Origin: an uncultured Gammaproteobacteria bacterium
Lineage (GTDB): Bacteria; Pseudomonadota; Gammaproteobacteria; Thiotrichales; Thiotrichaceae
Assembly: GCA_963847495.1 (NCBI GenBank)
Contig: CAWJZX010000013.1
Span: forward strand, 323,716-387,715
Length of the DNA stretch: 64,000 bases
Direction of reading: 5' to 3'
The stretch's first letter is position 1, and the number at the start of each line of letters is the position of its first letter. The notes under the pieces were generated by a model that was given only the letters and a program-made list of their open reading frames with translations, searched no databases and was not told where the DNA came from. Shown here one piece after another: positions 10,086 to 28,375 of this stretch. The position numbers were made by a program, and so were the translations under genes.

Positions 10086-10218
10086 CTTATTTCGACCACA
10101 TCGACGATTCCTTGCAGAATCTACGATGGACTTTCTTGGCTCTTGGTGAGCCTAAGAAAGACACCCCCTACCTTTTTAGCACTTTTCCATAAATCAATCG
10201 AGTCTGACCTCATTGATT
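10086..10218 (+). repeat. Module D plus C-box head plus module I
   Basis: TTTCGACCACATCGACG..GAATCTACGATGGACTTTCTTGGCTCTTGGTGAGCCTAAGAAAGACACCCCCTACCTTTTTAGCACTTTT..AATCAATCGAGTCTGACCTCATTGATT. The right arm overlaps the stop of ORF 10210. Confidence 0.85.
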
Positions 10219-10953: not shown

Positions 10954-11020
10954 TTTGAGTTTTCCACTTTTTTATGAGACGGGAATTACTATAGCTTTTA
11001 GCTGTGCATCTACTCCTCTG

Positions 11021-11848: not shown

Positions 11849-12026
11849 GTTGAATTCTCCGCTTTTTTATTAAATACACCCGACATCATTCCTGGATCTA
11901 ACGCTCTGTCTAATGTGGTGCGTAACGAGTCAATTGGAGCCCGCTGAGTTCACCGCTAATGGGAGCGAAGTGTCCTTCTGACAGGCATTGTGTTATGCTT
12001 TTTTTTGATCCTGGTCTAATAAGCGT

Positions 12027-12779: not shown

Positions 12780-12968
12780 TTTATTCCCCTTTAGAAAAAC
12801 GATTGTTTCACAATTACATACAAATTTAAGTTGGAAAGTAACATGTGATTAACCCTATCAAACAAAAGGAGCGATAAATTAGACAAATATCAATAATAAT
12901 CAAATTAATTGAATAAAAACATGAGAAAGAGTAACTTAGGTAGAGTTATTAAAAATTTTTCAAGTAAT

Positions 12969-13190
12969 TTATTTACAGTGCTGTCCAATCCGCGTGGCCT
13001 GCACAGCCTCAGTCTTAATCCCATCCGCCAAAACCGTTTCACTCGCCACAATATCTACCTTCTGTTTGGCTCGCGTTATTCCCGTATAAATCAACTGTCT
13101 TGTGAGTAATGGCATGACTTCATGTGGCAGTATCAATGCAACTTAGTCAAATTCTGAACCCTGGCTTTTGTGGATGGTCATTGCCCATGT
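12969..13190 (-). pseudogene. 3' remnant of a second recD copy
   Basis: Translation is TWAMTIHKSQGSEFD*VALILPHEVMPLLTRQLIYTGITRAKQKVDIVASETVLADGIKTEAVQATRIGQHCK*. It closely parallels the RecD C-terminus at 18815..19040. There is an in-frame TAA at 13143-13145, and similarity is lost above about 13190. Confidence 0.8.
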
Positions 13191-13318
13191 GTATAAGCGG
13201 GGTCAGCGTAAACTTTAATACCTTGCTTTGCAGATAAATATTATTGGCAAGGAGGCTGTCGTACTGATAGATTTATAGCTGTATCTTTTAATGCTGTCGC
13301 ATTTTGTACTTAAAAAAA

Positions 13319-13530
13319 GACACCCCCCTACTTTTAAGTGATTTTTATGCGGCTGCGCCTTCCCTACGGGTCAGCATTAAACGACAATGCTTTTGTCTCG
13401 ATAAATCTCGGCTCGTTTTTGTTCTTTAAAAACGTAAATAGAATTTATGCAGAGCTGAGGCGGTTTTTATGCGGCTGCGCCTTTACTTCAGATCAACTTT
13501 AAAATAACAGTCTTGTTGTTTCACTATGTC
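13319..13530 (+). repeat. C-box head plus module B plus tail-like segment plus a second partial B
   Basis: GACACCCCCCTACTTTTAAGTGATTTTTATGCGGCTGCGCCTTCCCTACGGGTCAGCATTAAACGACAATGC...TTATGCAGAGCTGAGGCGGTTTTTATGCGGCTGCGCC... Confidence 0.85.
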
Positions 13531-13532
13531 GG

Positions 13533-13703
13533 CTAGTCTTTTTTGTCAATTGTGATCTCAATAGACTTGCTATCACCCGCAAACCACTTCTGAACATACA
13601 AAGAACCCACGATAGGTGCGGTTCCTTCATCAGGGACTTCCTTATAGCGAACACTGTTTTTTGTTTCTTTCTCGTATTGAAACTTTACTACTTTCTTTGA
13701 CAT
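13533..13703 (-). CDS. Small hypothetical protein (56 aa), below the track cutoff
   Basis: MSKKVVKFQYEKETKNSVRYKEVPDEGTAPIVGSLYVQKWFAGDSKSIEITIDKKD. Its 5' end and upstream region are duplicated at 15609-15673. Confidence 0.4.
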   Translation of the reverse strand: MSKKVVKFQYEKETKNSVRYKEVPDEGTAPIVGSLYVQKWFAGDSKSIEITIDKKD

Positions 13704-13748
13704 AGAATTTTCTCGCTAAACACTTTTATTTTGACTAATCATAATTGC

Positions 13749-13836
13749 AGGTCGGATAAGCATAGCGCCATCCGACATGACCATGATTGATACCACACAA
13801 ATGTCGGATGGCGTACCTTATCCGACCTACCGCGCT
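13749..13836. repeat. REP-like palindromic doublet
   Basis: AGGTCGGATAAG..CGCCATCCGACAT - loop - ATGTCGGATGGCG..CTTATCCGACCTAC. It resembles enterobacterial REP (…CTTATCCGGCCTAC). Confidence 0.8.
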
Positions 13837-13842
13837 AATTAT

Positions 13843-15357
13843 CTAAAAAAATGGCACCAAAGTTAACTTAGAATAATCAAGGTATTGCAGTGGGTTAGCT
13901 TGCAAACCTGTATTTTCATAAAATCGACTTAAATCATTTGAACTTGAAGCTGCCTCTATTGCTTCTCGTTTTGTTGCTGATTCAATTGCCTGCCTCATTG
14001 TAATAATTGTTTTGTCATAGTCTGGTTTATAGCTGTTTATATTATTCATATTTTGGCAATTCGACATATTCTTAAATTCAAATTCATTTGCCACATTGCC
14101 CAGTATTTGACAGTTTCTATTATCAAATACTTTTATTGAACCCGATGCTTGTCGACTGTTTTTTCCTTGATCTACCAATAACACAAAATTACCTGCAACC
14201 ACATTATCAATCCCTCTGGAGAGCGTAATGCCGTGATGTTGATTAGATGCACAGAAATTATTTATTATCTTTATGTTCGCGTATGGCAAAGATCTAAATC
14301 TAAAAAATGAATCGCCTTTTTCATCTCGAGTAAAAAAGCACTGCCAACCTGTTAAATTGGGATTAGTTAAAGGCGTATCACCCACGAGCGAAATATTATT
14401 ACGAATAGTTACATTTGTGTTGCTGCGCTTCATTTTAGTCGTATATAGCTGGATCATATCGCTATGAACATACTTTATTTTGCGAAAGCGTTGTTTATAA
14501 AAAACAGGGGTTCTGGTATGCATTAAATTTGAATCAAATAATGCGTTATTGATACCACCACCAGAAAACATATCGCTAGCCACTCTGATTGCTTTATTGG
14601 CTATCGCATAAAATGAATTCATTTCATTAAACTCAACCGCATGAAATAAATCGGTAAAAAGCGTCCTATCAATAATGATGTTATTACTTTGTTTGATAAG
14701 CAGACCTGACTGGCTGGCCAAAATCGCATCTATATTTCCGCGTTTTAACGCGGTTAAATTATTTTTTTTATCACTAAAATGCAAATTGCTTAAACGAACG
14801 TTATTTGAACTCCTAATCTGCCATGAGTAATTGTTTCGAGAGGTACCCCATAAATTGTTTATCTTAAAATGACTGATGGTTACATTGTGTAGGTTCTCCC
14901 ATGTTATGTTTTCAAAAAATGGAGCCTGATTTTCACCTAACATACCAAGAATAAGCACTGGTTCATCAAAACGATGCTTTTGTTTGTAATGATAACGCTT
15001 ATCTCTGAGGTTGCTTCTTACTACAATAATCTCGCCACCAGTGGCGTTATCTAGAACCTCAGACAGTTGCTTAAAATTAAAAACGTTGAACACTATATTG
15101 TTATCTATAATTTCAGCAGGATTAATTTTAATAAGCTTGCTTGAAGATAAACTTGGCATCTCAATTTGAAATTGAGAGTTATCCTTAGCAAAGGACACAA
15201 ATTCCTCTGCATAACAGTGGCTATTTGTGATAAATAAAAATATTAAAAGAATGTAGTTAGCAATTTTTAAGTGAGGAAATAAGTGATTCAAACTGCTTTG
15301 TTGATTGTTTTTATTATTAAAGCCTGACCTTCTTTTCATTATAATATTTTCCTTCAA
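13843..15357 (-). CDS. Parallel beta-helix repeat protein, visibly very AT-rich
   Basis: 504 aa with an N-terminal hydrophobic segment and repeated N-rich turns (IRSSNNVRLSNLHF, IKQSNNIIIDRTLF, NVTIRNNISL) typical of right-handed beta-helix proteins. Confidence 0.6.
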   Translation of the reverse strand: MKENIIMKRRSGFNNKNNQQSSLNHLFPHLKIANYILLIFLFITNSHCYAEEFVSFAKDNSQFQIEMPSLSSSKLIKINPAEIIDNNIVFNVFNFKQLSEVLDNATGGEIIVVRSNLRDKRYHYKQKHRFDEPVLILGMLGENQAPFFENITWENLHNVTISHFKINNLWGTSRNNYSWQIRSSNNVRLSNLHFSDKKNNLTALKRGNIDAILASQSGLLIKQSNNIIIDRTLFTDLFHAVEFNEMNSFYAIANKAIRVASDMFSGGGINNALFDSNLMHTRTPVFYKQRFRKIKYVHSDMIQLYTTKMKRSNTNVTIRNNISLVGDTPLTNPNLTGWQCFFTRDEKGDSFFRFRSLPYANIKIINNFCASNQHHGITLSRGIDNVVAGNFVLLVDQGKNSRQASGSIKVFDNRNCQILGNVANEFEFKNMSNCQNMNNINSYKPDYDKTIITMRQAIESATKREAIEAASSSNDLSRFYENTGLQANPLQYLDYSKLTLVPFF

Positions 15358-15534
15358 CCCTGTAGAAACTTAAAAGACCTTACTCGAAGCAAAACCAATC
15401 CAACAATCCTAGCAATTTTTAAAAAAAGTATTAGAATATTTTACAAAAAGCCGTAAAAAATGTGCTTTCCTACTAAAAATTAAGTTATAAAAGTATTTAC
15501 TGGAGACCTCAGTATAACTAACGACTAATTAAGC

Positions 15535-15608
15535 AGAGCGCCATCCGACATGACCATGATTGACCTCAAACAATTGTCGGATGACGTAACCTTATCCGAC
15601 CTACCGCG
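15535..15608. repeat. REP-like palindrome (partial doublet), a direct repeat of 13765-13838
   Basis: GCGCCATCCGACATGACCATGATTGA...TTGTCGGATGACG..CTTATCCGACCTACCGCGCT. Confidence 0.8.
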
Positions 15609-15673
15609 CTACTTTCTTTGACATAGAATTTTCCCGCTAAACACTTTTATTTTGACTAAACACAATTGTAGGT

Positions 15674-17041
15674 TGATGAAATGGTCTCCTCCCCTTAATT
15701 CGGCATCTAAGTACCATAATTGGAGATGAAATATTTCCCAATTAAACAAAGAAGGAGACCACCATGAATATTAGCGCCATCGGGCTAGATATTGCAAAAC
15801 AGATTTTTCACCTTGTAGGCTTAGATGATCAAGGCAATCAAGTACTAAAGAAAACTCTTCGACGAACAAAGTTATTAGCTTACTTTGCTAACCTTAACCC
15901 CTGTGTTATTGGCATAGAAGGTTGTGCAAGTTCACATTATTGGGCACGTGAGCTGAATAAGCTCGGACATCAAGTTAAGCTACTTCCAGCACACTATGTA
16001 AAACCTTATGTTCGAGGTAACAAAAATGATTATAACGATGCTTTAGCCATTGCTGAGGCATGTCGAATTCCTGAAATGCGAGAAGTCAGAACTAAAACTG
16101 TTGAACAGCAAAGCATACAAGCCATGCACCGTTTTCGTCGAGGAGCGGTTGCAGATAGAACAAAGCTTTGTAATCAGGTACGCGGGTTACTTGCCGAGTT
16201 TGGTATTGTTATCAAACAAGGTATCAGCTCTTTGAGAAAGAAGCTCCCAGAAATACTCGAAGATGGAGAAAACCAATTACACTGGATGTTTCGAGATGCA
16301 TTAGCTCTAAAATACAGACAACTATGCGAACTTGATGAATTGGTGAAAGAGCTAACCATCATGATTGAGAGAGAAGCCAAACAACATCTGCAAATCAAAC
16401 AATTGCAAAGTATTCCAGGGTTTGGGGCAATTGTAGCAAGTACCTTCTTTAGCGTGATTGGTGATGGAAAGACTTTTAGCAAAGGCAGAGATGTATCTGC
16501 ATCATTGGGATTGGTGCCACGGCAACACAGTAGTGGAGGTAAAAACATCCTGCTGGGTATTAGTAAACGAGGTGATAAATATCTACGAAGCCTTTTAGTT
16601 CATGGAGCTAGATCAGTTGTGAATCACGCCCATAAGAAAGATGATGCACTGAGTCTTTGGGTTACTCGTTTAGTAAAAACACGAGGAAAGAATAAAGCCA
16701 CGGTTGCTCTTGCGAATAAACTGGCAAGAATTGCATGGGCAGTAACCATTAGCGGTAAGCCATACCAAAGAAATTTTGTGATTTAAAGAAAGTAGTAGAA
16801 ATAAACACATCAACGATTTGCGAGAGACAACAAGTAACGATGACATTATAGGTAAGACCGACATACTGAAACCTGCCTCATCCGAAGGATAGTAAATCCG
16901 ATAGGTCGATTAGGACAGTATGTGCAGACTTCATCAAGGCTCGGGATCTAAAACAATCCTATTATGAAGCCGGATATACGAAAGCAAATCTATCCCTGTC
17001 AATATTACACGTTGTCTTGCAAAAATGGAGGAGACCATATA
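15674..17041 (+). mobile_element. IS110-family element of the IS1111 type, inserted in a REP-like arm
   Basis: It interrupts AATTGTAGGT|CGGATAAG (the intact version is at 13744-13760). Subterminal inverted repeats are ATGGTCTCCTCC (15681-15692) and GGAGGAGACCAT (17027-17038). The 5' lead is short (about 90 nt) and the 3' non-coding tail is long (about 255 nt). Confidence 0.85.
15764..16786 (+). CDS. IS110-family (DEDD) transposase
   Basis: 340 aa with GLDIAKQ, GIEGCASSHYW, KNDYNDALAI and C-terminal IPGFGAIVAS motifs. Confidence 0.92.
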   Translation: MNISAIGLDIAKQIFHLVGLDDQGNQVLKKTLRRTKLLAYFANLNPCVIGIEGCASSHYWARELNKLGHQVKLLPAHYVKPYVRGNKNDYNDALAIAEACRIPEMREVRTKTVEQQSIQAMHRFRRGAVADRTKLCNQVRGLLAEFGIVIKQGISSLRKKLPEILEDGENQLHWMFRDALALKYRQLCELDELVKELTIMIEREAKQHLQIKQLQSIPGFGAIVASTFFSVIGDGKTFSKGRDVSASLGLVPRQHSSGGKNILLGISKRGDKYLRSLLVHGARSVVNHAHKKDDALSLWVTRLVKTRGKNKATVALANKLARIAWAVTISGKPYQRNFVI

Positions 17042-17050
17042 CGGATAAGG

Positions 17051-17187
17051 GTGTTATATCACTTTGTAGACAAGTCAGTCGAGAATGAGTCTATTGATTT
17101 TGAAATTACACCCCCCCTACTTTTAGGCGGTTTTTTTTGTTGAACTGATGACTAAAAGAACTTATGCAAAGCTAAGCGGTTTTTAAG
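17051..17187 (+). repeat. Module J plus I plus C-box head plus tail module C
   Basis: GTGTTATATCACTTTGTAGACAAGT...ACACCCCCCCTACTTTTAGGCGGTTTTTTTT...ATGACTAAAAGAACTTATGCAAAGCTAAGCGGTTTTT. Confidence 0.85.
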
Positions 17188-17223
17188 ATATGTCGAGAAA
17201 CGACAGTAGTTTGCACTTATTGT

Positions 17224-17772
17224 TTAATCATCATCTTCGTAACCCTCGGGTAATTTGTGGGCAATGCCTTTATGACAATCTATGCAGGTCTCAGTCCCTT
17301 TCTCAATCGCATTTTGCATCTTTTCAGCCGCACGATCGCCTTCCTCGTGAAAATCAATGGAATCAAAAGAATGGCAATTACGGCACTCTCGGGAATCAGT
17401 CGATTTCATGCTATCCCACACATGTTCAGCCAGTTCCAGGCGTTTTGCTTCGAATTTTTCTGGGTATTAATGCTCCCTAACGCCTTGTAATAAAGCTCGT
17501 TGCTGACCTTTATTTTTCGTATCATCTTGGGTAACCAGGCCTTGGGGACATGGCAATCAAAACAAGTTGCACGCACTCCTGAAGCATTCTTGTAGTGAAC
17601 ACTTTGTTTATACTCTTGAAAGACCATTTGCTCCATTTCATGACAGGAGATATAAAAAATCAAGGGTGTTAGTTTCTTCAATTACGGTATGGTAACCACC
17701 CCAGAAAAGAATACCAAATAACGTTCCTGCAGCAAAAACCTTGAAGATGATTTTATTAAATTTCCCAAACAT
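17224..17772 (-). pseudogene. NapC/NirT/CymA-family tetrahaeme cytochrome c with two frameshifts
   Basis: There is an N-terminal TM segment (MFGKFNKIIFKVFAAGTLFGILFWGG) and four CxxCH motifs (CISCH, CFDCH, CRNCH, CIDCH) spread over three frames. The frame breaks are near 17660-17670 and 17440-17450. Confidence 0.8.
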
Positions 17773-17846
17773 GACTCATGTACTCAAAGCAAAGCCCCTT
17801 TTTAAGGGGAGCTTGTTGACTAGCAAAATACTGACATCAGTAGAGA

Positions 17847-18557
17847 TTATTTTTCCTTAGGTAAGGTTTGCACATGAGCAAGAATGTCCACCGCCACCTG
17901 AAGGTCAAAAGCACGCATTGCAGGCATCTCCTCATCGGGTTGGCCATTCAGTATTTTCTGGATGATTTCCCATGGGTTCTTGTTGGCAAGGCCGCCTAGT
18001 GCAGCCATATCCTCAGGCATAAGACCTGTTTTTTCATGGCAGCCAGCACAAACTGTATTAAAGTATTTTTCACCCTGCGCTTTATTGCCTTTCGCCATTT
18101 TGGTTTTACGATCGATTACTGCATCAACATCGATCTGGCCCTTGGTGACAAAGTTAGCCAAATCAGTAAAGTCCTGATCACTCATTTTACCAGAATAGCC
18201 ATGGGTAGCGTCTTTCATTGCTGCAATCACTTTTGAGTTATCTACACCCTGCATGTTTTTAAGCCCTTTGATTCCAGTCATATAAGAACCAGAGGCATAA
18301 GCACCATCCTTACCCATCAGATCCCAGCCATGACAAGACTTGCAACGGTGAGTCGCATTACCCTTCTTCTTCGTATTCGATGCAGGCCAGGCCGGATGAG
18401 TGTCTTTTGGTTTATCCACCCCAATCACCTTAAACCATTTATCATACAATTGACCGCCACGTGCAATTGAAGAGACCTCTTCCTCTGCAAATGTGATTTG
18501 TGAAAAACCTAACATTGCTACGATACTAAACAGGCTTACTAATATTTTCTTATCCAT
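17847..18557 (-). CDS. Periplasmic dihaem c-type cytochrome
   Basis: 236 aa with a signal peptide and two CxxCH motifs (CKSCH, CAGCH). Confidence 0.8.
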   Translation of the reverse strand: MDKKILVSLFSIVAMLGFSQITFAEEEVSSIARGGQLYDKWFKVIGVDKPKDTHPAWPASNTKKKGNATHRCKSCHGWDLMGKDGAYASGSYMTGIKGLKNMQGVDNSKVIAAMKDATHGYSGKMSDQDFTDLANFVTKGQIDVDAVIDRKTKMAKGNKAQGEKYFNTVCAGCHEKTGLMPEDMAALGGLANKNPWEIIQKILNGQPDEEMPAMRAFDLQVAVDILAHVQTLPKEK

Positions 18558-18800
18558 TTTACTTCTCCTTTAATTATAAGTAGTTACCAGGCCCTGAAAA
18601 CATCTTGTTAAATTAGTTAGTTCTAAACGCAGAATGCAAAACCCTAAAACGGGACTTTCAGAGGGATAATTAACGTATAGCATTTATTTGCCCATAATTG
18701 CCAAATATTCTATCAATCCATGCTTTAGATCATTGTTTATTTAATAAATATCAATTTAAGCATGTCGAACACTCCAGGAACACTGTAGATATACAGTAAA

Positions 18801-18828
18801 CACACCCCCTACTTTTAGCTACTTTTTA
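18801..18828 (+). repeat. C-box head overlapping the recD stop codon
   Basis: CACACCCCCTACTTTTAGCTACTTTTTA. The recD stop TAA is the complement of 18815-18817. Confidence 0.8.
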
Positions 18829-20698
18829 TCTGCACTTCAATCCTCGTAGCTTTAACCACATCTGCCTTAACCCCAGCCACCAAAACAGCTTCACTCGCCA
18901 CTATATCGACTTTCTGTTTGGCCCGCGTTATTCCGGTATATATTAATTGTCTTGTTAGCAGTGGCATTTCTTCGTGCGGCAAGATCAAAACCACTTGATT
19001 GAATTCTGAGCCTTGGCTTTTGTGAATAGTCATTGCCCATGTGGTTTCGTGCGCTGGCAGTCGTACTGGGGAGAATGCTTTGAACTCGCCTTCAGCTGCA
19101 GGAAAAAACACTTTTACTTCACCATTTTCAATCAGTGTGATTCCGGTATCGCCATTGAACAGGCCTTTGTTGTAGCTGTTCCGGGTGATCATGATCGGGC
19201 GGCCGTGATACCAGTTAGAGGACAAGCTCTGAGTCTGGCTAGTAGAACGCCTGATTCTGATTAAATCCTGTTTGGCTAGTGCAGTTTCGATGCGTTGGTT
19301 CATTAACACACTGCCGTTTAAGCCACGGCGTAAGGCGCACAGGATTCGGTATTGATTGAAAGTCTCGAAGATTTGTTCGTGAGTCGATGCAGGATTATTC
19401 AGCACTTCAAAATAATGTACCCAGGGTTTTATGAGTTCAGCATCGCGCATCGCTTCTGGTGCGATCAGTTTACAGCCAGTGCGGTTTTGATCTTTTAAAA
19501 CGCTGAGTAAGGTCGCGCTATCGCCTTGATTGGCGGCTATCGCTAACTGGCCGATATCGCTGTCTTCCGAGAAGCGCCAGTTCTTTTTCAAGGTAACGAG
19601 ATGCTCTGATTCTTCCAGACCGGCACAGACATCAGAAAATACCGAACCTGTTTCAACAGACGAGAGCTGGTCCTTATCACCAATCAGAATCAGTTTAGCG
19701 TTTGGCGGAACGGATTCTAGCAGTTTTGACATCAGCGCGATATCGATCATCGAGGCTTCATCCACCAGCACCACATCGGCATTCAAGGGGTTTTGAGCAT
19801 TGTGTTTGAATTGCACGCTACCGCGTTGATAACCCAGAAGTTTATGGATCGTGTTAGCCTCAGTCGGCATCTGCTGTAATAACTCATCGGATAAACCAAG
19901 TTTGCTTTGCAAGGCATTTGTTTCAAGCCGTATCGAGTCCAGCATGCGAATCGCTGCTTTACCCGTTGGCGCGGCTAACAGGATGTTTAAATGTTTGTTC
20001 TTATCAATATTTGAGTCTGAAAGGACACCCCCCCACTTTTTACTCGTTTTTTGCAAAAACTCGCCCTTCGGGCTAGCTAAAGCAGTTGTCTCGCTAACGC
20101 TCGGCTGACCACTTTTTTCAATCAGCAATGCCAGAATGCGAGTAATCGTAGTGGTCTTACCCGTACCCGGCCCGCCCGAGATAATCAGGAATCGTTTTTC
20201 CAGTGCACGGCTGGCTGCTATCTTTTGCCAGTTAACTGGCAAGCCTTCATCTTCAAAATAAATATCCAGACGCTGTTGTGCCCAGTCTTTTTGCTCTTGC
20301 TGATCAGTCCCCTCAGCCTCAGGAAACATTCTGGATTTAATCTGATCCGCCAGACGCTGTTGATATTGCCAGTAACGGCGCAGGTACAAATAGCCCTGAT
20401 CAATAATCAGCGGTTTGTAATCCCCTGCTTCGCCCACTACTTTGGTTTGCAATAATTCGACTTGCTGTTCATCCGTTATGGCAATCGCAATCTGGCCTTC
20501 GCGGGTGTGTTTGCTGATTTCCAGGGTGCAGGCTTTGAGGGTTTTATTCTGTGCCTTGTTTGACTCTTGCAATCCATTTAACTCCTGCATTAAATCAGCA
20601 AGCTGGTAATCGAGCGCTTCATAAGCTGCCGGCTCAGCTTCTATTGTGTCAGGCGCTTGTGTTGATACGGCAAAATCCATTGTGAGTTGTTCAGCCAT
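18815..20698 (-). CDS. recD: Exodeoxyribonuclease V alpha subunit RecD, carrying an in-frame repeat-derived insert
   Basis: 627 aa with Walker A GGPGTGKTTT, then LLAAPTGKAA, and helicase motifs through TIHKSQGSE. The start overlaps the recB stop (ATGGCTGA). Confidence 0.92.
   Translation of the reverse strand: MAEQLTMDFAVSTQAPDTIEAEPAAYEALDYQLADLMQELNGLQESNKAQNKTLKACTLEISKHTREGQIAIAITDEQQVELLQTKVVGEAGDYKPLIIDQGYLYLRRYWQYQQRLADQIKSRMFPEAEGTDQQEQKDWAQQRLDIYFEDEGLPVNWQKIAASRALEKRFLIISGGPGTGKTTTITRILALLIEKSGQPSVSETTALASPKGEFLQKTSKKWGGVLSDSNIDKNKHLNILLAAPTGKAAIRMLDSIRLETNALQSKLGLSDELLQQMPTEANTIHKLLGYQRGSVQFKHNAQNPLNADVVLVDEASMIDIALMSKLLESVPPNAKLILIGDKDQLSSVETGSVFSDVCAGLEESEHLVTLKKNWRFSEDSDIGQLAIAANQGDSATLLSVLKDQNRTGCKLIAPEAMRDAELIKPWVHYFEVLNNPASTHEQIFETFNQYRILCALRRGLNGSVLMNQRIETALAKQDLIRIRRSTSQTQSLSSNWYHGRPIMITRNSYNKGLFNGDTGITLIENGEVKVFFPAAEGEFKAFSPVRLPAHETTWAMTIHKSQGSEFNQVVLILPHEEMPLLTRQLIYTGITRAKQKVDIVASEAVLVAGVKADVVKATRIEVQIKSS
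20024..20119 (+). repeat. C-box head plus F-like module, in frame inside recD
   Basis: GACACCCCCCCACTTTTTACTCGTTTTTTGCAAAAACTCGCCCTTCGGGCTAGC...GTTGTCTCGCTAACGCTCGGCTGACCACTTTTTTC. It is near-collinear with the intergenic copy at 34957-35059. Confidence 0.85.
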
Positions 20699-23600
20699 TC
20701 ACAACCGCCATACTAGGTAATCGCATAAACAAAGCATCCAATGCCTGAATCAATTCAAGGCTGGGTTTATGAAAAAAGACACCCCCCCACTTATAAGCAC
20801 TTTTTGAAGATTTCTGTAGTTGTTTAGGTGCTGTATTCATTCCGCGTATAAACAGATAATAAACACCGCCGATATGCGTTTCCCAGCTGTAATCAGCAAG
20901 TCTCTGTTCTAAATACCGATGTAAAGCAACGCAGTAGAGCAGATATTGCAGGTAATAATGAGAATGTGCCATTGCCTCGAATAGGCTGTCTTGCTGATAA
21001 TCAGAGAGACTATTCGATTTGTAATCGGCAACATAGTATTTGCCATCATGCTCGAAAATCAGGTCGATAAAACCTTTCAGATAACCTTCGACTTCTTCGA
21101 AATAGAGACCATCAACCGCATCACGGATTTGTTGCCAGTTGGCATCATCCTTTGGTAGATGCTGAAACAGAATCTGCTTTAAATGATCTGTCTGCAATCG
21201 TTCCAGCGGTAGATAGAATTCCATCTCATTGAGGCGTTTCTCATTGCTTAACAGGTTTAGAGACAATCCATCTGTTAGCTCCGCCTGTAAACTCTGTTGC
21301 ATTAACTGCAACGCGCTCGCCTGGTGTTTTGGATCAAAACCGTATTTATTCAAGCTCGCTTCAATCACATCAGTTTGTTCTTCAATGGGTTTGATGAAAT
21401 CCAGATTCTCGTAGATTTCATGCAATACCGTACCTGCGGTTGCACCACGCGGGAATTCATCCACCTCAATGGTATTCTGAGCCTCTGCCTTATTCATCTG
21501 TAGTGAGCCAGACATTGAATCAGCAATGGAATCATAATCAGGCGTTTCAGCATGAGCACCTGAGGTCAAACCACTGAAACTGGTGATCTGTGCCTGCTTT
21601 TTAATTTCTGCAGTAAAGTGTCGTGCAACGAGTTTTTCTTCAGAAACTGTCTTCTGATATTTCAAATCTGTCGGATAGTCTGGAAGCGCATTCAGTGAAA
21701 TATGCGGATTACTTTGGGTCAGGCTTTGCAGGTTTTGATTGTATGCCTCAAAGTATTCGGCTTTTTCAGTAGTAGCTTGTTTCGAGTTTCCAGAAGGAAT
21801 AACTTTTCCATCAGTGAGCAACCAGCCAAATGCGGATTTATCCGGATTTCCACTAATCGCTTCGGGAAACACGACTACGTTACATTGATACTTGGCACGA
21901 GTCAGCGCGACATATAATAAGCGTGCGTCTTCGGCGCTTTCTTCCGCTGCTTTCAATGCTTTATGTTCGTCACTTTCAGGCGAACCAATTTCGAGATAAC
22001 TTAGCTTATCTTTATGAAATGTATAAATTTTATCGGATGGACGATTACTACTCATGCCCACAAATGGACAGTAAACAATCGGGTATTCCAGACCTTTGGA
22101 TTTATGGATGGTGACGATTTTTACCAGGTCATCGTCGCTTTCAAGGCGCAATACGGTCTCATTCGAGCTGGCATTTTCCTGTTGTTTTTTCAGCCAGCGC
22201 AATACTTCAGCCATACCGAGCATTTGCTGGCGTGATGTGTGATGAATCAATTCTGACAGCTGTAAAATATTACTTAAGCGACGCTCGCCATTATCATAAT
22301 CCATCAGGCGCTGATGCATGTTCTCGGCTTTCATCAAGCTTCGCATCATCGGCATAAAACCCTGTTTATTCCATTGATGATGATAATTTTGCATCTTCAT
22401 CAGGACTTCTTCCCAGGCTTCGCTATCGGTCTGGAAACGGATTAAATCTTCGGCCTGTCGACCCATCATTTCTGTCACCAATGCGCGACGGATTTCATCT
22501 TCTTTTTGCGGCGACACAATCGCCGTGAGTAAACGCAGCATTTCAGCGGCTTCATGTGTATCGTAAATACTCTCTTTGCTACTCTGAACGCTGGCAACTC
22601 CGCGTGCATTCAAAGCTGCCTTGATAACATCAGCCTGCGTATGTGAACGCACCAGAATTGCCATATCTCCGCCGCTAATTGCCTCATCGCCAATTCTGGC
22701 TTCACCGTTTGTGGCTTGATTAAGTAAGGATGCAATATCGCCTGCCACGGCGTTTGCAATCTGTTTGCGAATGAAGTCGGCGGTGGGTTTATCGTCACCA
22801 GTTTCATATCGCCAAAAATTTAAAGGCTTGCTGTTATTCTGGCTAACTAATTCAGCGGTTGTTTTATCTCCTGATTTTACCTGAACGTATTCAATCCCCT
22901 CATCCTTAAATGGATTTTCTGTCTTTGAATACAATGCGTTAAAGGCGCTAATTAAATCAGGATGTGAACGCCAATTGGTTTGAAGCGTGTAATGATTCGT
23001 TTCAGAAGTGTCCGCCTTGGCTTTTAAATAGGTATGAATATCACCGCCACGGAAACTGTAAATAGCCTGTTTTGGATCACCCACCAGAAATACCGTCTGG
23101 TCTTTTTGGGAAGTGTAAATAGAACTAAAAATATCGTACTGGATAGGATCGGTATCCTGAAACTCATCTATCAAGGCCGCCGGGTATTTACGGCTTAATT
23201 CTTTTGCTAATTGTGGATGCGCTTTTAACGTTTGCTGCATCTGCAATAACAAATCATCAAAGGATAAAACGCCTAAGCGCTGTTTTTCCTTAGGGAGTTC
23301 AGTTTGTAAATGTTGCAGTAACTCTACGCGGATATTGTTCAGGAAATCATCTGAGCTTTTATCCAGCTCAGTCCAGAGATCGAGGAAATCCTGCCATTGC
23401 TGGAAAAATGGATGTTCAATGGGTTCTACGTTTTTAGCAGTTTTTTTAACTTTGGGTGTTGTACCCAACCAAACCATTTTTTTAACATCAAGCTGATAAG
23501 GCAGATCATCTAACAGCGATAGTTTATCCATTTCTGTAATGACAAAATCACAGTTATCAATTAAGCCTTTATAGTAATGGTTCTCGTAGCCGGGAATCCT

Positions 23601-24305
23601 TAAAAGCTCGCTTATCTGCTGACCTTCATTACGCCATGTTTGCATCGCCTGAGTATAAAACTGCTCTAGCTCTTTCCATTTCTCCGCTTTTACTTTTTCG
23701 TTTTCTGGGCCGCAGATACTCAGGTAAGGTTTACCAACGTGCCTGACAATATCCTTTAATAATGAATCAGGTGTGATCTTTTCCTGATGCAATTTAAAAA
23801 CCAGTGACCTAGGTGCTTTGGCAAATCGACGGCGCCAAAAATCATCGGTGAGTTTTTGCATGATTTCAGAATCATCTTCCAGTAACTCACTATCAAACGA
23901 CAGATTCGCTTCAAAAGCATTCTCGCTCAAACTACGCTGGCAAAAACCGTGAATGGTAAAAACTGCGGCTTCGTCCATGCTTAGCTTGGCGCGATTTAAA
24001 CGTAGAACAGCTTCCTCTTGATCTTCAATTTTTTCGATTAGACGACTGTATTCGTGTTCCGCTTGATAATCGGGATCTGAAAATGCATTGAGTGCCGCTA
24101 CGATTCGTTTACGAATATTATCACGCAGTTCTTTGGTTGCAGCATCGGTGAAGGTCACGACCAGTATTTGATCGACTGTGAGGTTTTTTTCCAGTATTAA
24201 ACGCAGATACAATAGCGTTACTGTCCATGATTTACCCGTCCCGGCACTGGCTTCAATCAGATTGATTGATTCGAGTGGAATTGAATAAGGATCAAGTTCT
24301 TGCAT
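20691..24305 (-). CDS. recB: Exodeoxyribonuclease V beta subunit RecB
   Basis: 1204 aa with N-terminal IEASAGTGKSWT, UvrD-type helicase motifs, and the C-terminal nuclease motif GFIDLIFEHDGKYYVADYKSN. Confidence 0.93.
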   Translation of the reverse strand: MQELDPYSIPLESINLIEASAGTGKSWTVTLLYLRLILEKNLTVDQILVVTFTDAATKELRDNIRKRIVAALNAFSDPDYQAEHEYSRLIEKIEDQEEAVLRLNRAKLSMDEAAVFTIHGFCQRSLSENAFEANLSFDSELLEDDSEIMQKLTDDFWRRRFAKAPRSLVFKLHQEKITPDSLLKDIVRHVGKPYLSICGPENEKVKAEKWKELEQFYTQAMQTWRNEGQQISELLRIPGYENHYYKGLIDNCDFVITEMDKLSLLDDLPYQLDVKKMVWLGTTPKVKKTAKNVEPIEHPFFQQWQDFLDLWTELDKSSDDFLNNIRVELLQHLQTELPKEKQRLGVLSFDDLLLQMQQTLKAHPQLAKELSRKYPAALIDEFQDTDPIQYDIFSSIYTSQKDQTVFLVGDPKQAIYSFRGGDIHTYLKAKADTSETNHYTLQTNWRSHPDLISAFNALYSKTENPFKDEGIEYVQVKSGDKTTAELVSQNNSKPLNFWRYETGDDKPTADFIRKQIANAVAGDIASLLNQATNGEARIGDEAISGGDMAILVRSHTQADVIKAALNARGVASVQSSKESIYDTHEAAEMLRLLTAIVSPQKEDEIRRALVTEMMGRQAEDLIRFQTDSEAWEEVLMKMQNYHHQWNKQGFMPMMRSLMKAENMHQRLMDYDNGERRLSNILQLSELIHHTSRQQMLGMAEVLRWLKKQQENASSNETVLRLESDDDLVKIVTIHKSKGLEYPIVYCPFVGMSSNRPSDKIYTFHKDKLSYLEIGSPESDEHKALKAAEESAEDARLLYVALTRAKYQCNVVVFPEAISGNPDKSAFGWLLTDGKVIPSGNSKQATTEKAEYFEAYNQNLQSLTQSNPHISLNALPDYPTDLKYQKTVSEEKLVARHFTAEIKKQAQITSFSGLTSGAHAETPDYDSIADSMSGSLQMNKAEAQNTIEVDEFPRGATAGTVLHEIYENLDFIKPIEEQTDVIEASLNKYGFDPKHQASALQLMQQSLQAELTDGLSLNLLSNEKRLNEMEFYLPLERLQTDHLKQILFQHLPKDDANWQQIRDAVDGLYFEEVEGYLKGFIDLIFEHDGKYYVADYKSNSLSDYQQDSLFEAMAHSHYYLQYLLYCVALHRYLEQRLADYSWETHIGGVYYLFIRGMNTAPKQLQKSSKSAYKWGGVFFHKPSLELIQALDALFMRLPSMAVVNG
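20778..20805 (+). repeat. C-box head in frame inside recB
   Basis: GACACCCCCCCACTTATAAGCACTTTTT. Confidence 0.8.
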
Positions 24306-24477
24306 TGGGGCTATCTTAATCGCTATGCTATTTTTTGCATTAGTTATTTAATATCATCAGCTCGTTGAATTTAAATTTATGAAACTCATCCGTTTGTCGG
24401 GAACACTGACAATTCTCAGTTTAAAATCACTCACCCTATGTAAATGTTAATAAATAAAAACAAGTATAAAAATAAAG

Positions 24478-24513
24478 ACAAAAAAAAGACCCGCATAAAG
24501 CGGGCCTTTTTTG
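24478..24513 (-). terminator. Rho-independent terminator downstream of the Gly/Asn-rich gene
   Basis: GACCCGC-ataaa-GCGGGCC stem flanked by an A8 run and a T6 run; usable in both directions. Confidence 0.85.
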
Positions 24514-24534
24514 AACTACCTATAATCTAAACGA

Positions 24535-25083
24535 TTACTTTGCAGTTTTTTGAGCAGCTTCGATACGCTTTAGCATTTCGTCAGCTTGTTTAGCCTGAGC
24601 TTCCCACATTGCTTTCAACTGAGTGTAATCAGCAGCTGGAGCTCGTGCAGCCACTGGAGCAAAACCGTAACCTGCTGGAGCATAACCGTTGTTATAACCA
24701 TTAGAGTTGTTAGAACCAGAACTGTAACCGTCACCTACAAAATTACCCGCAGTGTTACCGTTACCTGCCCAGTTTCCAGCAGTGTTACCATTACCTTGTC
24801 CGTTACCAGTTAGGTTTCCAGCAGTATCCATATCTGTTCTGCCTTTGCCTTTGAATGTGATAGCAAAATCAACTTCGCCATCTGCATCGCCTTTAGCTGT
24901 TCCCCAGCCATTTCCGTTTACGTCGGTGTTACCAGTAGCATTACCCGCGCCGTTTGTGTTTCCAGCAGCAGATCCGTAACCGTTTCCGCTTCCGTTTCCG
25001 CTGTCAAATCCGTCAAACCAATCCGCTGACGCTGATGCTGATAAAGCCAATAAAGATGTTAATGCGATTGCTTGAAATTTCAT
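24535..25083 (-). CDS. Secreted Gly/Asn-rich low-complexity repeat protein
   Basis: 182 aa with a signal peptide, (G-N-x) repeats such as GNGSGNGYGSAAGNTNGAGNATGN, and a Tyr/Gly-rich segment. A terminator lies downstream. Confidence 0.75.
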   Translation of the reverse strand: MKFQAIALTSLLALSASASADWFDGFDSGNGSGNGYGSAAGNTNGAGNATGNTDVNGNGWGTAKGDADGEVDFAITFKGKGRTDMDTAGNLTGNGQGNGNTAGNWAGNGNTAGNFVGDGYSSGSNNSNGYNNGYAPAGYGFAPVAARAPAADYTQLKAMWEAQAKQADEMLKRIEAAQKTAK

Positions 25084-25298
25084 GTTGTGATTCCTTTCGA
25101 TGAGTATTTAATTTAAAAAAGTTTGTAAAAAGTCTTATTCGGATTAGTTGTTAACTTCGAATATGCTAATATAATAATATTCTAATATAGATATTGCAAG
25201 TGTTTTTTAAATATAAATTCAATATGTTCTTTTTTGATGCTCCTAATATCTTTATTATCAAGAACAATTCGAAATGAAAATAGCGTAGAATATGCCCC

Positions 25299-27581
25299 AT
25301 GAAAAAATACAAAGATCCCCATAAAGAACGCGAAGCCAAAAAATATGGCCGCCCTATTCCAAGCCGTGAGCTCATGCTCGAAGTTATGGATAAAGCAGGA
25401 CATCCTATTGGTTTTGAGGAACTTGCTGACTCCCTAGACTTGAAAGAGCCACAAGACCTCGATGCAATGAAATTTCGTTTACGTGCGATGGAACGTGATG
25501 GACAGATATTATTTAATCGTGGCAGAAAATATGTACCCGTAGAAAAAGCTGATTTAGTTGCCGGCCGGGTTCAAGGCCACCCCGATGGTTTTGGCTTTTT
25601 GATTCCTGATGACGGCAGTGATGATCTGTATTTGCATGGCAAACAGATGCGCAAGGTTTTACATGGAGATAAAGTATTAGCCAGTGTTACTGGCATTGAT
25701 CGCAAAGGTCGTCGCGAAGGTGGCATTGTTGAAGTATTGGAACACAATACCGAATCGGTTGTAGGACGCTACTTTGTCGAAAGCGGCTTAGGTTTTGTCA
25801 CTCCAGACAATTCACGTATCGCTCAGGATATATTAATTCCTCCGGAAAGTTCGGGCGAAGCCAAAAATGGGCAGATTGTGGTTGCTCGTATCGTTGAGTA
25901 CCCTACTTCACGCCATCAACCAATCGGTAAAATTATCGAAACACTTGGCGACCACATGGCGCCGGGACTGGAAATCGACATTGCTTTACGCTCATATGAT
26001 CTCCCTCATGTTTGGCCTGCTGAAGTATTAGCTGCGACAGATAAGCTTAGCGACGAAGTATTAGAAGCTGATAAAAAGGGGCGCGTTGATCTTCGCAATA
26101 TGCCGTTAGTTACGATTGACGGTGAAGATTCCCGTGATTTTGACGATGCAGTTTATTGTGAACAGGACAATAATGGCAATTGGCTATTAACTGTTGCTAT
26201 AGCAGATGTTTCTCATTATGTAGGAATTGGTACTGACTTGGATAAAGAAGCCTGGAATCGCGCCACTTCAGTGTATTTCCCTGCTGAAGTTATTCCAATG
26301 TTGCCTGAAAAAATCTCCAATGGTTTATGTTCATTAAATCCTGCAGTAGATCGTCTCTGTATGGTTTGTAAAGCAACCATAAATTCGAACGGAGAAGTTA
26401 TTGAATTTGAATTTAAAAGTGCAGTTATGCATTCCTCGGCACGTTTGACATACACCAGTATGGCAGCAATGGTTGTCGACCATGATCAAACCTTGCGTAA
26501 AGAACACGCAAATATCATCAATCACTTAGATGATCTCTACAAGCTATATAAAGTATTAAAAAAAGCGCGAATTGAACGCGGTTCAATAGACTTTGAAACC
26601 ACTGAAACACAAATTATCTTCGGTGAAAACCGCAAAATAGAGAATATCATTCCCACTGAGCGAAACGATGCACATAAAATAATCGAAGAATGCATGGTTA
26701 CGGCAAATATGTGTGCGGCACGCTTCTTAAAGCAGCATAAAATCCCAGCATTGCATCGTGTACATTCAGGGCCTGAAAAAGTAAAACTCGAGAAGGTTCA
26801 TGAATTTTTAAATGGCTTAGGCTTGAAATTAGGAGGTGGCGATAAGCCCCAACCTAAAGATTACGCAACCTTATTATCGAGCATTTCGGAACGACCTGAT
26901 GCACACTTGATACAAACTGTCATGTTACGCTCCATGAGTCGTGCACAATATGCTCCTGTTGATAAAGACAAGCCTGAAAGTACCCGTCATTTTGGCTTAG
27001 GACGAAATGATTATGCACACTTTACCTCTCCGATTCGGCGCTATCCCGATTTATTAGTACATCGTGCGATACGCCATATACTGCAAACTAAAACTGCAGA
27101 AGGTTATGACTACGATTATATGCAGATGAAAGCGCTGGGTGAGCATTGTTCTAAATGTGAGCAGCGCGCTGATGATGCCAGCCGTGATGTTATGTCATGG
27201 CTTAAAGCAGAGTATATGCAGGATAAGGTCGGTGAGACATTCTCTGGCATTATCTCAACGGTAACCAGCTTTGGCCTATTCGTTGAACTTGACAATATTT
27301 ATGTCGAAGGGCTCGTGCATGTTTCTGCATTGAGGAGTGATTATTACCATTTTGATGCGGCAAGACACAAAATGGTGGGTGAAAATTCAGGTAAGAGCTA
27401 TCGTCTGGGTGATCCGATTGAAATTGTCGTAGCACGCGTTGATCTAGATGATCGAAAAATTGATTTTGTTTTGCCTGACTCATCAAGTGATGATGGTTTT
27501 GATAAGCCTCGCAGGAAAAAAAGTAAAAATAAAGACAAATATTCCAAGCAAAAATATAAATCACAGAAAAAGAACAAATAA
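25299..27581 (+). CDS. rnr: Ribonuclease R
   Basis: 760 aa with the RNB-domain motif HFGL...YAHFTSPIRRYPDLLVHR, an S1 domain, and a lysine-rich tail. Confidence 0.93.
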   Translation: MKKYKDPHKEREAKKYGRPIPSRELMLEVMDKAGHPIGFEELADSLDLKEPQDLDAMKFRLRAMERDGQILFNRGRKYVPVEKADLVAGRVQGHPDGFGFLIPDDGSDDLYLHGKQMRKVLHGDKVLASVTGIDRKGRREGGIVEVLEHNTESVVGRYFVESGLGFVTPDNSRIAQDILIPPESSGEAKNGQIVVARIVEYPTSRHQPIGKIIETLGDHMAPGLEIDIALRSYDLPHVWPAEVLAATDKLSDEVLEADKKGRVDLRNMPLVTIDGEDSRDFDDAVYCEQDNNGNWLLTVAIADVSHYVGIGTDLDKEAWNRATSVYFPAEVIPMLPEKISNGLCSLNPAVDRLCMVCKATINSNGEVIEFEFKSAVMHSSARLTYTSMAAMVVDHDQTLRKEHANIINHLDDLYKLYKVLKKARIERGSIDFETTETQIIFGENRKIENIIPTERNDAHKIIEECMVTANMCAARFLKQHKIPALHRVHSGPEKVKLEKVHEFLNGLGLKLGGGDKPQPKDYATLLSSISERPDAHLIQTVMLRSMSRAQYAPVDKDKPESTRHFGLGRNDYAHFTSPIRRYPDLLVHRAIRHILQTKTAEGYDYDYMQMKALGEHCSKCEQRADDASRDVMSWLKAEYMQDKVGETFSGIISTVTSFGLFVELDNIYVEGLVHVSALRSDYYHFDAARHKMVGENSGKSYRLGDPIEIVVARVDLDDRKIDFVLPDSSSDDGFDKPRRKKSKNKDKYSKQKYKSQKKNK

Positions 27582-27584
27582 CAA

Positions 27585-28331
27585 ATGAAAACGTTGATTA
27601 CCGGAATTCATGCAGTTGAATCTGCACTGAAAAATGATGCAGACAATATCATCCAGGTCTGGATTGCAGAAAATAAACGTAATCAGCGCGTCAAAGAACT
27701 CATCAACCATGCGCAAAAACGTGGGCTAATTTCACATCGAGCCGATATGGCGTCATTGGATAAACTTGCAAAAACACGTCAACATCAAGGTGTGGTGGCT
27801 GAATATAATGCACCGGCAAGTTATACCGAAGATGATTTGATCAACATCCTTGATAATATTGATAGCTCTGTTACACCTCCCCTGCTTTTAGTGCTTGATG
27901 GAGTGACTGACCCACATAATCTAGGGGCTTGTTTGCGAACCGCTGAAGGTGCTGGCGTACATGCAGTTATTGCACCAAAAGACAATGCCGTAGGCTTAAC
28001 CCCTGCTGCGCGCAAAGTTGCCTCGGGTGCAGCTGAAACAGTGCCATTTATTCAGGTAACCAACCTTGTTCGAACCATTGAAAAACTGAAACAACTGGGT
28101 ATCTGGTTTATCGGCACCAGTGACCAGGCTGATGGTGACCTATACACATACGACTTCAAAACACCCAGTGCGATTGTTATGGGTGCAGAAGGCAAAGGCT
28201 TAAGAAGACTAACAGAAGAACACTGCGACACCCTGGTTTCTATCCCAATGGCGGGGCAAGTTTCTAGTTTGAATGTTTCAGTCGCAACAGGTGTTTGTTT
28301 GTATGAAGTCGTCAGACAACGCCAGGCTTAG
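27585..28331 (+). CDS. rlmB: 23S rRNA (guanosine-2'-O)-methyltransferase RlmB (SpoU family)
   Basis: 248 aa immediately downstream of rnr (conserved synteny), with SpoU motifs (DGVTDPHNLGA, MGAEGKGLR, SLNVSVA). Confidence 0.9.
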   Translation: MKTLITGIHAVESALKNDADNIIQVWIAENKRNQRVKELINHAQKRGLISHRADMASLDKLAKTRQHQGVVAEYNAPASYTEDDLINILDNIDSSVTPPLLLVLDGVTDPHNLGACLRTAEGAGVHAVIAPKDNAVGLTPAARKVASGAAETVPFIQVTNLVRTIEKLKQLGIWFIGTSDQADGDLYTYDFKTPSAIVMGAEGKGLRRLTEEHCDTLVSIPMAGQVSSLNVSVATGVCLYEVVRQRQA

Positions 28332-28375
28332 TTCGAACAAATCAACTATAACTTTTTTAAGATAACCGTTTAAAA

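What the first reader, a model, noticed from the sequence alone, without database searches (positions are those of the whole stretch)
20778..20805. A second in-frame head copy lies inside the C-terminal region of recB and is translated in the same frame (KWGGV)
GACACCCCCCCACTTATAAGCACTTTTT lies within recB and encodes ...SSKSAYKWGGVFF... on the minus strand. It falls in a stretch (GMNTAPKQLQKSSKSAYKWGGVFFHKPS) that is about 11 residues longer than the equivalent E. coli RecB segment as I recall it.

The frame is the one used by the recD copy. The two codons that are stops in canonical heads (TAA and TAG in AAA AGT xxx TAA AAG TAG GGG) are changed here to TAT and TGG.

Two independent coding insertions in adjacent genes of the same complex argue that insertion is tolerated or selected, rather than a coincidence.
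Basis: partly seen in the sequence, partly recalled or inferred. Interest (0 to 1): 0.75.

Follow-up and report, generated by a model that had tools for sequence, protein, structure and literature searches.

The report
Genome's polar repeat word inside recB
A 33-base DNA word that litters this marine bacterium's genome, always on the same strand, also sits in frame inside the DNA-repair gene recB, where related bacteria have kept the DNA word itself rather than the peptide it encodes.

Summary
Window 20774-20806 (-) is a full-length, high-scoring copy of the window's dominant repeat, AAAAA-N5-TAAAAG-NN-GGGGGG-TGTC-N-TTT. It has 33 copies on the minus strand and none on the plus strand. It is read in frame as KSAYKWGGVFF, in an 18-residue loop of the RecB nuclease domain. 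E. coli-type RecB and a repeat-free Thiotrichaceae relative have 7 residues there.

It is not a recent insertion. Six related lineages carry the word at the same recB site. At least two reading frames are used, and in the best cases the 5' part matches that genome's own variant. Codon choice is far more word-like than the peptide requires (P about 6e-5). The final G-V-F is ancestral RecB.

In one relative a near-perfect antisense copy lies inside a conserved rlmB motif and is made purely by synonymous codons, so copies can form without any insertion. Intergenic copies hold the same slots in a relative whose flanking DNA no longer aligns.

The word has no hairpin. Its G-rich form lies on the leading strand.

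Best reading: a DNA-level, strand-polar genomic signal, with the peptide as a passenger. Its function is unproven: Chi/KOPS-like, uptake-sequence-like, or spread through single-stranded DNA.

The parts
20774..20806 (-). Full-length 'head' copy inside recB: CAAAAAGTGCTTATAAGTGGGGGGGTGTCTTTT, translated as (Q)KSAYKWGGVF(F).
   Evidence: PWM score 36.7 bits. Synonymous-recoding test P=6e-5.
20784..20837 (-). Expanded RecB loop, residues N1157-G1174 (18 residues where repeat-free RecBs have 7). It lies between two beta-strands of the nuclease domain.
   Evidence: Alignment of 113 RecB C-termini. AF2 model: pLDDT 60-67 in the loop, below 50 at the K-S-A of the head peptide, about 95 in the flanks. 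The E. coli RecB match ends at residue 1149.
20691..24305 (-). recB (1204 aa). Its last 8 nt overlap the start of recD.
   Evidence: Match to PDB 1w36_B, E=6e-44.
20020..20074 (-). Head copy inside recD (KKWGGV), together with a 5' module GCCCGAAGGGCGAGTTTTTGCAAAAAACGAGT that it shares with the intergenic copy at 34953-35000.
   Evidence: PWM score 44.6 bits. Recoding test P<5e-6. It lies in a roughly 40-residue insertion replacing the E. coli RecD 191-196 loop.
18815..20698 (-). recD (627 aa).
18796..18828 (-). Head copy that supplies recD's last codons and its stop codon (ATA AAA AGT AGC TAA).
   Evidence: A recD 3' fragment at 12979-13191 loses homology exactly where this head starts.
261..63075 (-). 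The repeat family in the window: 33 copies, all on the minus strand. Examples start at 13315, 48966, 34953, 57232, 48226, 40945, 28372, 33407, 10030 and 63043. Consensus: AAAAA-nnGCc-tAAAAGTaGGGGGG-TGTc-nTTT.
   Evidence: Copies occur in all four kinds of intergenic context.

Best explanation
The sequence is a genuine, full-length copy of this genome's most abundant repeat. The repeat is a 33-nt, non-palindromic word that always lies on one strand. Its G-rich form is on the leading-strand sequence, which is also the lagging-strand template. The recB copy sits in frame in an enlarged, flexible beta-hairpin loop of the RecB nuclease domain.

What is maintained is the DNA word, not the peptide. 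The word has been at this recB site since before the divergence of lineages whose RecB C-termini are only about 60-70% identical. In different lineages it is read in different frames, and in the clearest cases it carries that genome's own 5' variant. Its codons are far closer to the word than the peptide requires.

Copies in genes arise and persist where coding constraints allow. This includes tolerant loops such as those in RecB and RecD. It also includes conserved peptides whose synonymous codons can spell the word, such as rlmB in relative L003. Selection on the protein removes variants carrying stop codons.

I infer that the word is a protein-recognised, replication-oriented chromosomal signal. 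It resembles Chi/KOPS in its polarity. It resembles DNA uptake sequences in its architecture and in how it evolves. It is kept up to date by a strand-specific directional process, either selection or single-strand-based conversion. The KSAYKWG peptide is a neutral passenger on RecB.

Shown here: family membership, polarity, age, DNA-level constraint, loop location, and formation without insertion. Inferred: recognition by a protein, the link to replication, and the nature of the directional process.
For: Membership and statistics.

Polarity:
- 33:0 in the window. PWM hits of at least 8 bits: 44:0.
- Relatives keep the polarity: L250 6:0, L003 7:1, L246 5:1.
- Copies occur in -|-, -|+, +|- and +|+ intergenic contexts, so orientation does not follow transcription.

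Minus strand is the leading strand:
- GC3 skew is +0.082 in minus-strand genes and -0.113 in plus-strand genes.
- Intergenic skew is -0.041 on the plus strand.
- 68% of coding bases are on the minus strand.

Age:
- The same recB site carries the word in L002, L003, L004, L005, L246 and L247.
- It is absent from L001 and from RecBs at or below about 57% identity.

DNA-level rather than protein-level constraint:
- Codon identity is 8/8 inside the motif, against 40-47% elsewhere in the gene.
- Recoding tests give P=6e-5 for recB, P<5e-6 for recD and P=3e-3 for L247 recB.
- L247 reads the word in another frame (AAA AGT GGG GGG GTG TAC), and the L004 recD copy also uses another frame.

Genome-specific 5' variants tracked by the recB copy: L246 (AAAAATCCCTAA) and L247 (ACATCATGT).

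Formation without insertion: in L003, the rlmB codons GAC ACC CCC CCA CTT TTA CTC GTT TTA GAC encode the conserved motif DTPPLLLVLD and spell an antisense head (P=2e-4).

Slot conservation: four intergenic heads occupy the same slots in L250, while the flanking DNA is unalignable.

No secondary structure. Loop location.
Against: - The link to replication rests on one replichore-sized window plus syntenic relatives. No origin or terminus flip could be examined.
- Short non-syntenic contigs give mixed skew concordance (21:15; L248, L064 and L106 are discordant).
- In other lineages the same core occurs on both strands and as inverted pairs (L033, L034, L037, L070, L078, L106, L119). That does not fit a universal polar function.
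- Some features look like duplicative spread rather than formation in place. The recD copy shares a 34-nt 5' module with the copy at 34953. Four copies share about 97 nt of flank. A 97%-identical relative differs by a composite-plus-IS110 block.
- The recB copies in L003 and L004 are partly decayed even though their genomes carry the repeat, so this particular copy is not indispensable.
- No recognising protein has been identified.
Confidence: 0.6

Rival explanations
1. A selfish, non-autonomous mobile element (MITE-like) inserted into recB and separately into recD. It was tolerated because it landed in surface loops, and its orientation bias comes from transposition through single-stranded DNA on the lagging-strand template. 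This is.
For: - Discrete extra length: +11 residues in RecB and about +40 in RecD.
- The recD copy shares a 5' module with an intergenic copy.
- Subfamilies share flanks of up to 97 nt.
- Presence/absence differs between close relatives.
- IS200-type single-strand transposition is known to give a replication-linked orientation bias (PMC3971601).
Against: - No hairpins, terminal inverted repeats or target duplications.
- No Y1/RAYT transposase in the window. Only IS110, IS3 and IS91 types are present.
- Orthologous copies are kept, not decayed, across about 35% protein divergence, with saturated synonymous sites around them.
- The L003 rlmB copy formed with no insertion.
- The core is conserved in otherwise unalignable intergenic DNA.
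- A canonical copy inserted in this frame would carry two stop codons.
Confidence: 0.2
2. The word is a DNA uptake signal sequence. Competent cells preferentially take up DNA carrying it, and this drive accumulates copies, including in tolerant parts of genes.
For: - Density is about 1 per 1.9 kb.
- The architecture is a conserved core plus phased A/T tracts.
- Lineage-specific variants exist, and other lineages have terminator-like inverted pairs.
- Copies can be created by codon choice and lie at poorly conserved residues, as reported for USS/DUS (PMC2817400).
Against: - Polarity is 33:0. From my own recollection, known USS/DUS are about equal on both strands.
- Only 6% of copies are in genes, against 34-65% for USS/DUS.
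- No competence data were found for this group.
Confidence: 0.15
3. The peptide K-x-W-G-G-V is selected at the protein level as a new functional element shared by RecB and RecD.
For: The same pentapeptide occurs in two subunits of one enzyme, and in L002 as well.
Against: - The peptide changes when the frame changes: CKSGGVY in L247, and ISGGVT in the L004 recD copy. The DNA word persists in both.
- There is no synonymous variation inside the motif.
- The loop has low predicted confidence and looks flexible.
- The copies in L003 and L004 have drifted.
Confidence: 0.03
4. The G7 tracts created in recB and recD act as slippage-prone contingency switches that turn RecB or RecD off and on.
For: Both coding copies have G7, one G longer than the canonical G6. 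L002 and L247 also have G7, and L246 has G8.
Against: - There is no population evidence of length variation.
- The broken genes in L003, L004 and L246 look like assembly errors (the L003 and L246 contigs are labelled 4x and 3x coverage).
- G7 is short for efficient phase variation.
- L005 has G6.
Confidence: 0.05

Closest known systems
DNA uptake signal sequences (USS of Pasteurellaceae, DUS of Neisseriaceae)
   Same: - Thousands-per-genome density.
- A conserved core with lineage-specific variants and A/T-rich flanks.
- In-frame copies at poorly conserved residues, made by codon choice.
- Inverted pairs that look like terminators in some lineages (PMC2817400).
   Different: - Absolute strand polarity in this clade.
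- Almost all copies are intergenic.
- Copies travel with other repeat modules.
- Uptake has not been tested.
Chi and KOPS/AIMS polar oligomers
   Same: - G-rich word on the leading strand with extreme skew.
- Orientation independent of transcription.
- Copies can be written into genes through codon choice.
   Different: - 33 nt with about 17 highly conserved positions, rather than 5-8 nt.
- Mostly intergenic.
- Related lineages use it in both orientations.
- The classical KOPS motif GGGNAGGG is not enriched here (1 vs 2), and GNTGGTGG is only 3 vs 9.
Rickettsia palindromic elements (in-frame selfish repeats in genes; from my own knowledge, Ogata et al. 2000)
   Same: A genome-wide repeat is translated in frame within surface loops of housekeeping proteins without destroying them.
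   Different: - RPEs are 100-150 bp, palindromic, and are clear insertions.
- This word is 33 nt and unstructured.
- It is conserved at the DNA level across lineages and can arise without insertion.
REP/BIME-RAYT elements and IS200/IS605-derived MITEs
   Same: High-copy intergenic repeats near gene ends, mosaic with other modules. Single-strand mechanisms can give an orientation bias (PMC3971601).
   Different: No palindrome or hairpin, and no Y1 transposase in the window. The GTAG tetranucleotide is present, but it is not followed by a stem.

Membership tests
The window's 'head' repeat family | Matches the consensus AAAAA-N5-TAAAAG-NN-G6-TGTC-N-TTT over its full length, on the minus strand. 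| tested here: met
   36.7 bits against a PWM built from intergenic copies. All conserved blocks are present.
RecB (exodeoxyribonuclease V beta), nuclease domain | PD-(D/E)XK nuclease domain homologous to the E. coli RecB C-terminus. | tested here: met
   Match to 1w36_B, E=6e-44. Relatives carry PF12705. AF2 model pLDDT 86.
DNA uptake signal sequences | High-copy conserved core, with copies in genes at tolerant positions made by codon choice. | tested here: met
DNA uptake signal sequences | Roughly equal numbers on both strands (from my own knowledge of USS/DUS). | tested here: not met
   33:0 in the window. 18:2 summed over L250, L003 and L246.
DNA uptake signal sequences | Preferential uptake by competent cells. 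| not testable with these tools
   Requires an experiment.
Chi/KOPS-type polar motifs | Strong skew toward the leading strand, independent of gene orientation. | tested here: met
Chi/KOPS-type polar motifs | Orientation switches at the origin and terminus. | not testable with these tools
   Only one 64-kb window and syntenic contigs were accessible.
Chi/KOPS-type polar motifs | Short (5-8 nt) word spread through coding DNA. | tested here: not met
   33-nt word, 94% intergenic.
REP/RAYT or IS200/IS605-derived MITE | Imperfect palindrome or subterminal hairpins. | tested here: not met
   Folding z-scores range from -1.25 to +1.22, and no stem is shared between copies.
REP/RAYT or IS200/IS605-derived MITE | Cognate Y1 transposase in the genome. 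| tested here: inconclusive
   None among 53 window ORFs.
Intrinsic terminator | GC-rich hairpin followed by a U tract. | tested here: not met
   Single copies have no hairpin. Only the inverted pairs in other lineages could form one.
Rickettsia palindromic element-like in-frame insertion | A discrete palindromic insert of 100-150 bp. | tested here: not met
   33 nt, non-palindromic.

The most novel reading that the evidence does not exclude
The head is a previously undescribed kind of genomic word. It is a roughly 33-nt replication-oriented signal that is continuously rewritten onto the lagging-strand template by a single-strand DNA conversion process, for example annealing of an endogenous or imported single strand at the fork. 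This would explain together its total polarity, its conservation in diverged intergenic DNA, its genome-specific variants, and its appearance inside conserved codons and protein loops such as those of RecB, RecD and RlmB.
Probability: 0.2. Interest if true: 0.85.

Novelty: new variant of a known kind. Interest (0 to 1): 0.6.

Why it matters
If the reading is right, a Leucothrix/Cocleimonas-group bacterium and its relatives carry a long, strictly strand-polar DNA word. The word is strong enough to shape codon choice and loop length in housekeeping proteins. That makes it a tractable natural case of conflict and accommodation between a DNA-level signal and protein coding.

It also gives a concrete candidate sequence to test for three functions in a poorly studied lineage: Chi activity, FtsK-orienting activity and DNA-uptake activity. 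The RecB and RecD loops show where those proteins tolerate insertions.

Tried and rejected
- **Rfam and tRNA scans of the window:** nothing found.
- **Folding of eight copies as single strands:** no significant structure. This rejects REP-like, terminator and hairpin-MITE readings.
- **Genome-contig scan with RecB:** only one distant locus (50% identity). It serves as a repeat-free outgroup.
- **Metagenome pattern scan:** many family members, but the contigs are short. The GC-skew versus orientation test was not significant (21:15). A GC3-based version gave mixed results outside the syntenic relatives.
- **Viral contig scan:** only single, chance-level hits.
- **Literature search by sequence string, and for uptake sequences in Thiotrichales:** nothing.
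- **Reaching other parts of the source genome through identical IS110 proteins or cluster members:** only short foreign contigs and no names.
- **The window's own rlmB site (27873-27890):** it first looked like a third coding copy, but it is not significantly word-like (P=0.1). Only the L003 orthologue is.
- **Classical Chi and KOPS words:** not enriched enough to say anything.
- **Whether the IS110 elements target the head itself:** flank comparison gave no consistent junction.

Full report
**Observation.** recB is window 20691-24305 on the minus strand (1204 aa). recD is 18815-20698 (627 aa) and overlaps recB by 8 nt. The reported 28-mer is at 20778-20805. In the recB frame it reads AAA AGT GCT TAT AAG TGG GGG GGT GTC, which is KSAYKWGGV. 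The canonical 21-mer AAAAGTNNNTAAAAGTAGGGG, with up to 3 mismatches, has 20 hits against 0.08 expected by chance, all on the minus strand. The recD copy (core 20025-20040) uses the same frame. A third copy (18796-18828) supplies recD's last codons and its stop codon.

**The family.**
- Allowing up to 3 edits to the 16-nt core gives 33 copies on the minus strand and none on the plus strand.
- A 33-nt weight matrix gives 44 positions of at least 8 bits on the minus strand and none on the plus strand.
- The aligned consensus is AAAAA-nnGCc-tAAAAGTaGGGGGG-TGTc-nTTT, with A/T tracts about 10-11 nt apart.
- Single copies have no significant secondary structure. Rfam and tRNA scans find nothing.
- Copies lie in all four kinds of intergenic context: 10 in -|-, 7 in -|+, 7 in +|-, and 5 in +|+. 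Orientation therefore does not follow transcription.
- Only 2 of 33 copies are inside genes, although 73% of the window is coding.

**The minus strand behaves as the leading strand.**
- Third-position GC skew is +0.082 in minus-strand genes and -0.113 in plus-strand genes.
- Intergenic DNA without heads has a skew of -0.041 on the plus strand.
- 68% of coding bases are on the minus strand.

**Source organism.** It belongs to the Leucothrix/Cocleimonas group of Thiotrichaceae. Its RNase R is 80-84% identical to MAGs carrying those names.

**The recB site in relatives.** An alignment of 113 RecB C-termini shows that G-[VI]-[FY] after the loop is universal. The loop has 7 residues in E. coli-type proteins and in a repeat-free Thiotrichaceae MAG (L001), and 18 residues here. 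At the codon level, six related lineages carry the word at this same site:

| Locus | Sequence at the recB site |
|---|---|
| L002 | AAA AGT GTT AAA AAG TGG GGG GGT GTC |
| L005 | ..CAA AAG GTG GGG GGT GTC |
| L004 | AAA AGT GCT TAT AAG TCC GAG GGT GTG |
| L003 | a decayed copy |
| L246 | GAAAAATCCCTAAATAAAGGGGGGGGTGTC, in a much longer loop |
| L247 | AAAACATCATGTAAAAGTGGGGGGGTGTAC, read in another frame (CKSGGVYF) |

L002 also carries the recD copy. L004 has a recD copy in another frame. The 5' parts in L246 and L247 match those genomes' own variants of the repeat. So the copy is old, it is not tied to one peptide, and it follows the family's local form.

**DNA-level constraint.**
- Between the window and L002 or L005, identical amino acids share the same codon in 40-47% of cases outside the motif, and in 8 of 8 cases inside it.
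- The observed peptides were recoded with the window's codon usage, and the resulting word scores were compared with the observed scores:

| Site | P (recoded score reaches observed) |
|---|---|
| recB (window) | 12/200,000 |
| recD (window) | 0/200,000 |
| recB (L247) | 3e-3 |
| rlmB (L003) | 2e-4 |
| rlmB (window) | 0.1, not significant |

**Formation without insertion.** In rlmB, the conserved SpoU motif D-TPPLLLVLDG has the same length in all relatives. In L003 its codons (GAC ACC CCC CCA CTT TTA CTC GTT TTA GAC) spell an antisense, near-perfect head with the family's polarity. Heads can therefore be written by substitutions alone.

**Intergenic conservation.** L250 (RNase R 88% identical, syntenic) has 6 heads on the same relative strand and none on the other. 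Four occupy the same slots as in the window: after rlmB, RraA, BrkB and the thioredoxin-like gene. The surrounding intergenic DNA is essentially unalignable, and the 5' variable parts differ. L003 has 7:1 and L246 has 5:1.

**Structure.**
- The E. coli RecB match stops at residue 1149, just before the loop.
- An AlphaFold2 model of RecB 906-1204 has mean pLDDT 86. The loop (RecB 1157-1174) scores 60-67, and falls below 50 at the K-S-A of the head peptide. It lies between two confident strands.
- The recD copy lies in a roughly 40-residue insertion that replaces the E. coli RecD 191-196 loop after the Walker A helix.

**Interpretation.** The data fit a DNA-level, strand-polar signal whose copies settle wherever coding allows, with the peptide as a passenger.

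Evidence against a simple mobile element:
- There are no hairpins or terminal repeats.
- No Y1 transposase is present among the 53 window ORFs.
- Copies are retained at orthologous sites.
- The L003 rlmB copy formed in place.

Evidence in favour of a mobile element:
- The recD copy shares a 34-nt 5' module with the copy at 34953.
- Four copies share about 97 nt of flank.
- A 97%-identical relative lacks the composite-plus-IS110 block after RraA.

Uptake sequences share the architecture, the lineage variants, the codon-level copies and (in other lineages) the inverted pairs (PMC2817400). They are not known to be polar, and they are much more often found in genes.

Chi/KOPS-type words share the polarity, but they are short and mostly lie inside genes.

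The replication link could not be tested across an origin or terminus. Short unrelated contigs give mixed results.

**Verdict.** The finding is best filed as a new variant of the 'genomic signal word inside genes' phenomenon, with an unusually long and strictly polar word.

Noticed in passing
window 18796-18828 (-): A head copy forms recD's last four codons and its stop codon (ATA AAA AGT AGC TAA, giving IKSS*).
   Followed up: partly
window 12979-13191: A roughly 215-nt fragment is 78-84% identical to the recD 3' end (18831-19043). Homology ends exactly where the head begins at the real recD end, so this looks like a relic partial duplication.
   Followed up: partly
window 15667-17050, 31339-32283, 53116-54123 (+): Three IS110-family elements are all on the plus strand, each with a minus-strand head nearby (within about 50-250 nt of the element or its gene). 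The same IS in L248 and L249 has the same relative orientation. The block after RraA is absent from a 97%-identical relative (L251). No consistent target junction was found.
   Followed up: partly
window 13340-13470, 31056-31134, 48993-49116, 60291-60369, 40976-41029, 17131-17184: Other repeat modules travel with heads. Examples are GCTGACCCGTAGGGAAGGCGCAGCCGCAT and AAAAATGCCTTAGCTTTGCATAAGTTCTTTTAGTCATTTC. Several begin with the same AAAAA-N5 prefix, giving a mosaic organisation reminiscent of BIMEs.
   Followed up: no
window 10120-10160, 42380-42415, 52850-52885: A hairpin module CTTTCTTAGGCTCACCAAGAGCCAAGAAAG directly follows three heads. It also appears next to heads in metagenome contigs L008, L066 and L122.
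   Followed up: no
window 20781-20788 and 20027-20034 (-): Both coding copies carry G7 homopolymers, one G longer than the canonical G6. These are potentially slippage-prone tracts inside recB and recD.
   Followed up: no
L247 384-399 (-): That relative has a second head copy, antisense, inside recB in the acidic linker before the nuclease domain.
   Followed up: no
L033, L034, L037, L070, L078, L106, L119: In other marine lineages the same core (AAAAGTRGGGGGGTGT) occurs as near-perfect inverted pairs forming roughly 40-nt palindromes, like bidirectional terminators, and shows no strand polarity.
   Followed up: partly
window 50660-52646 (-), 7763-8919 (-), 45421-47066 (-): An IS91-type Y2 transposase with an adjacent tyrosine recombinase, an IS3-type element, and a hipBA toxin-antitoxin pair.
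   Followed up: no
window 10210-12779 (-): Three tandem paralogous ORFs with no Pfam match (repeats D13 and D14).
   Followed up: no
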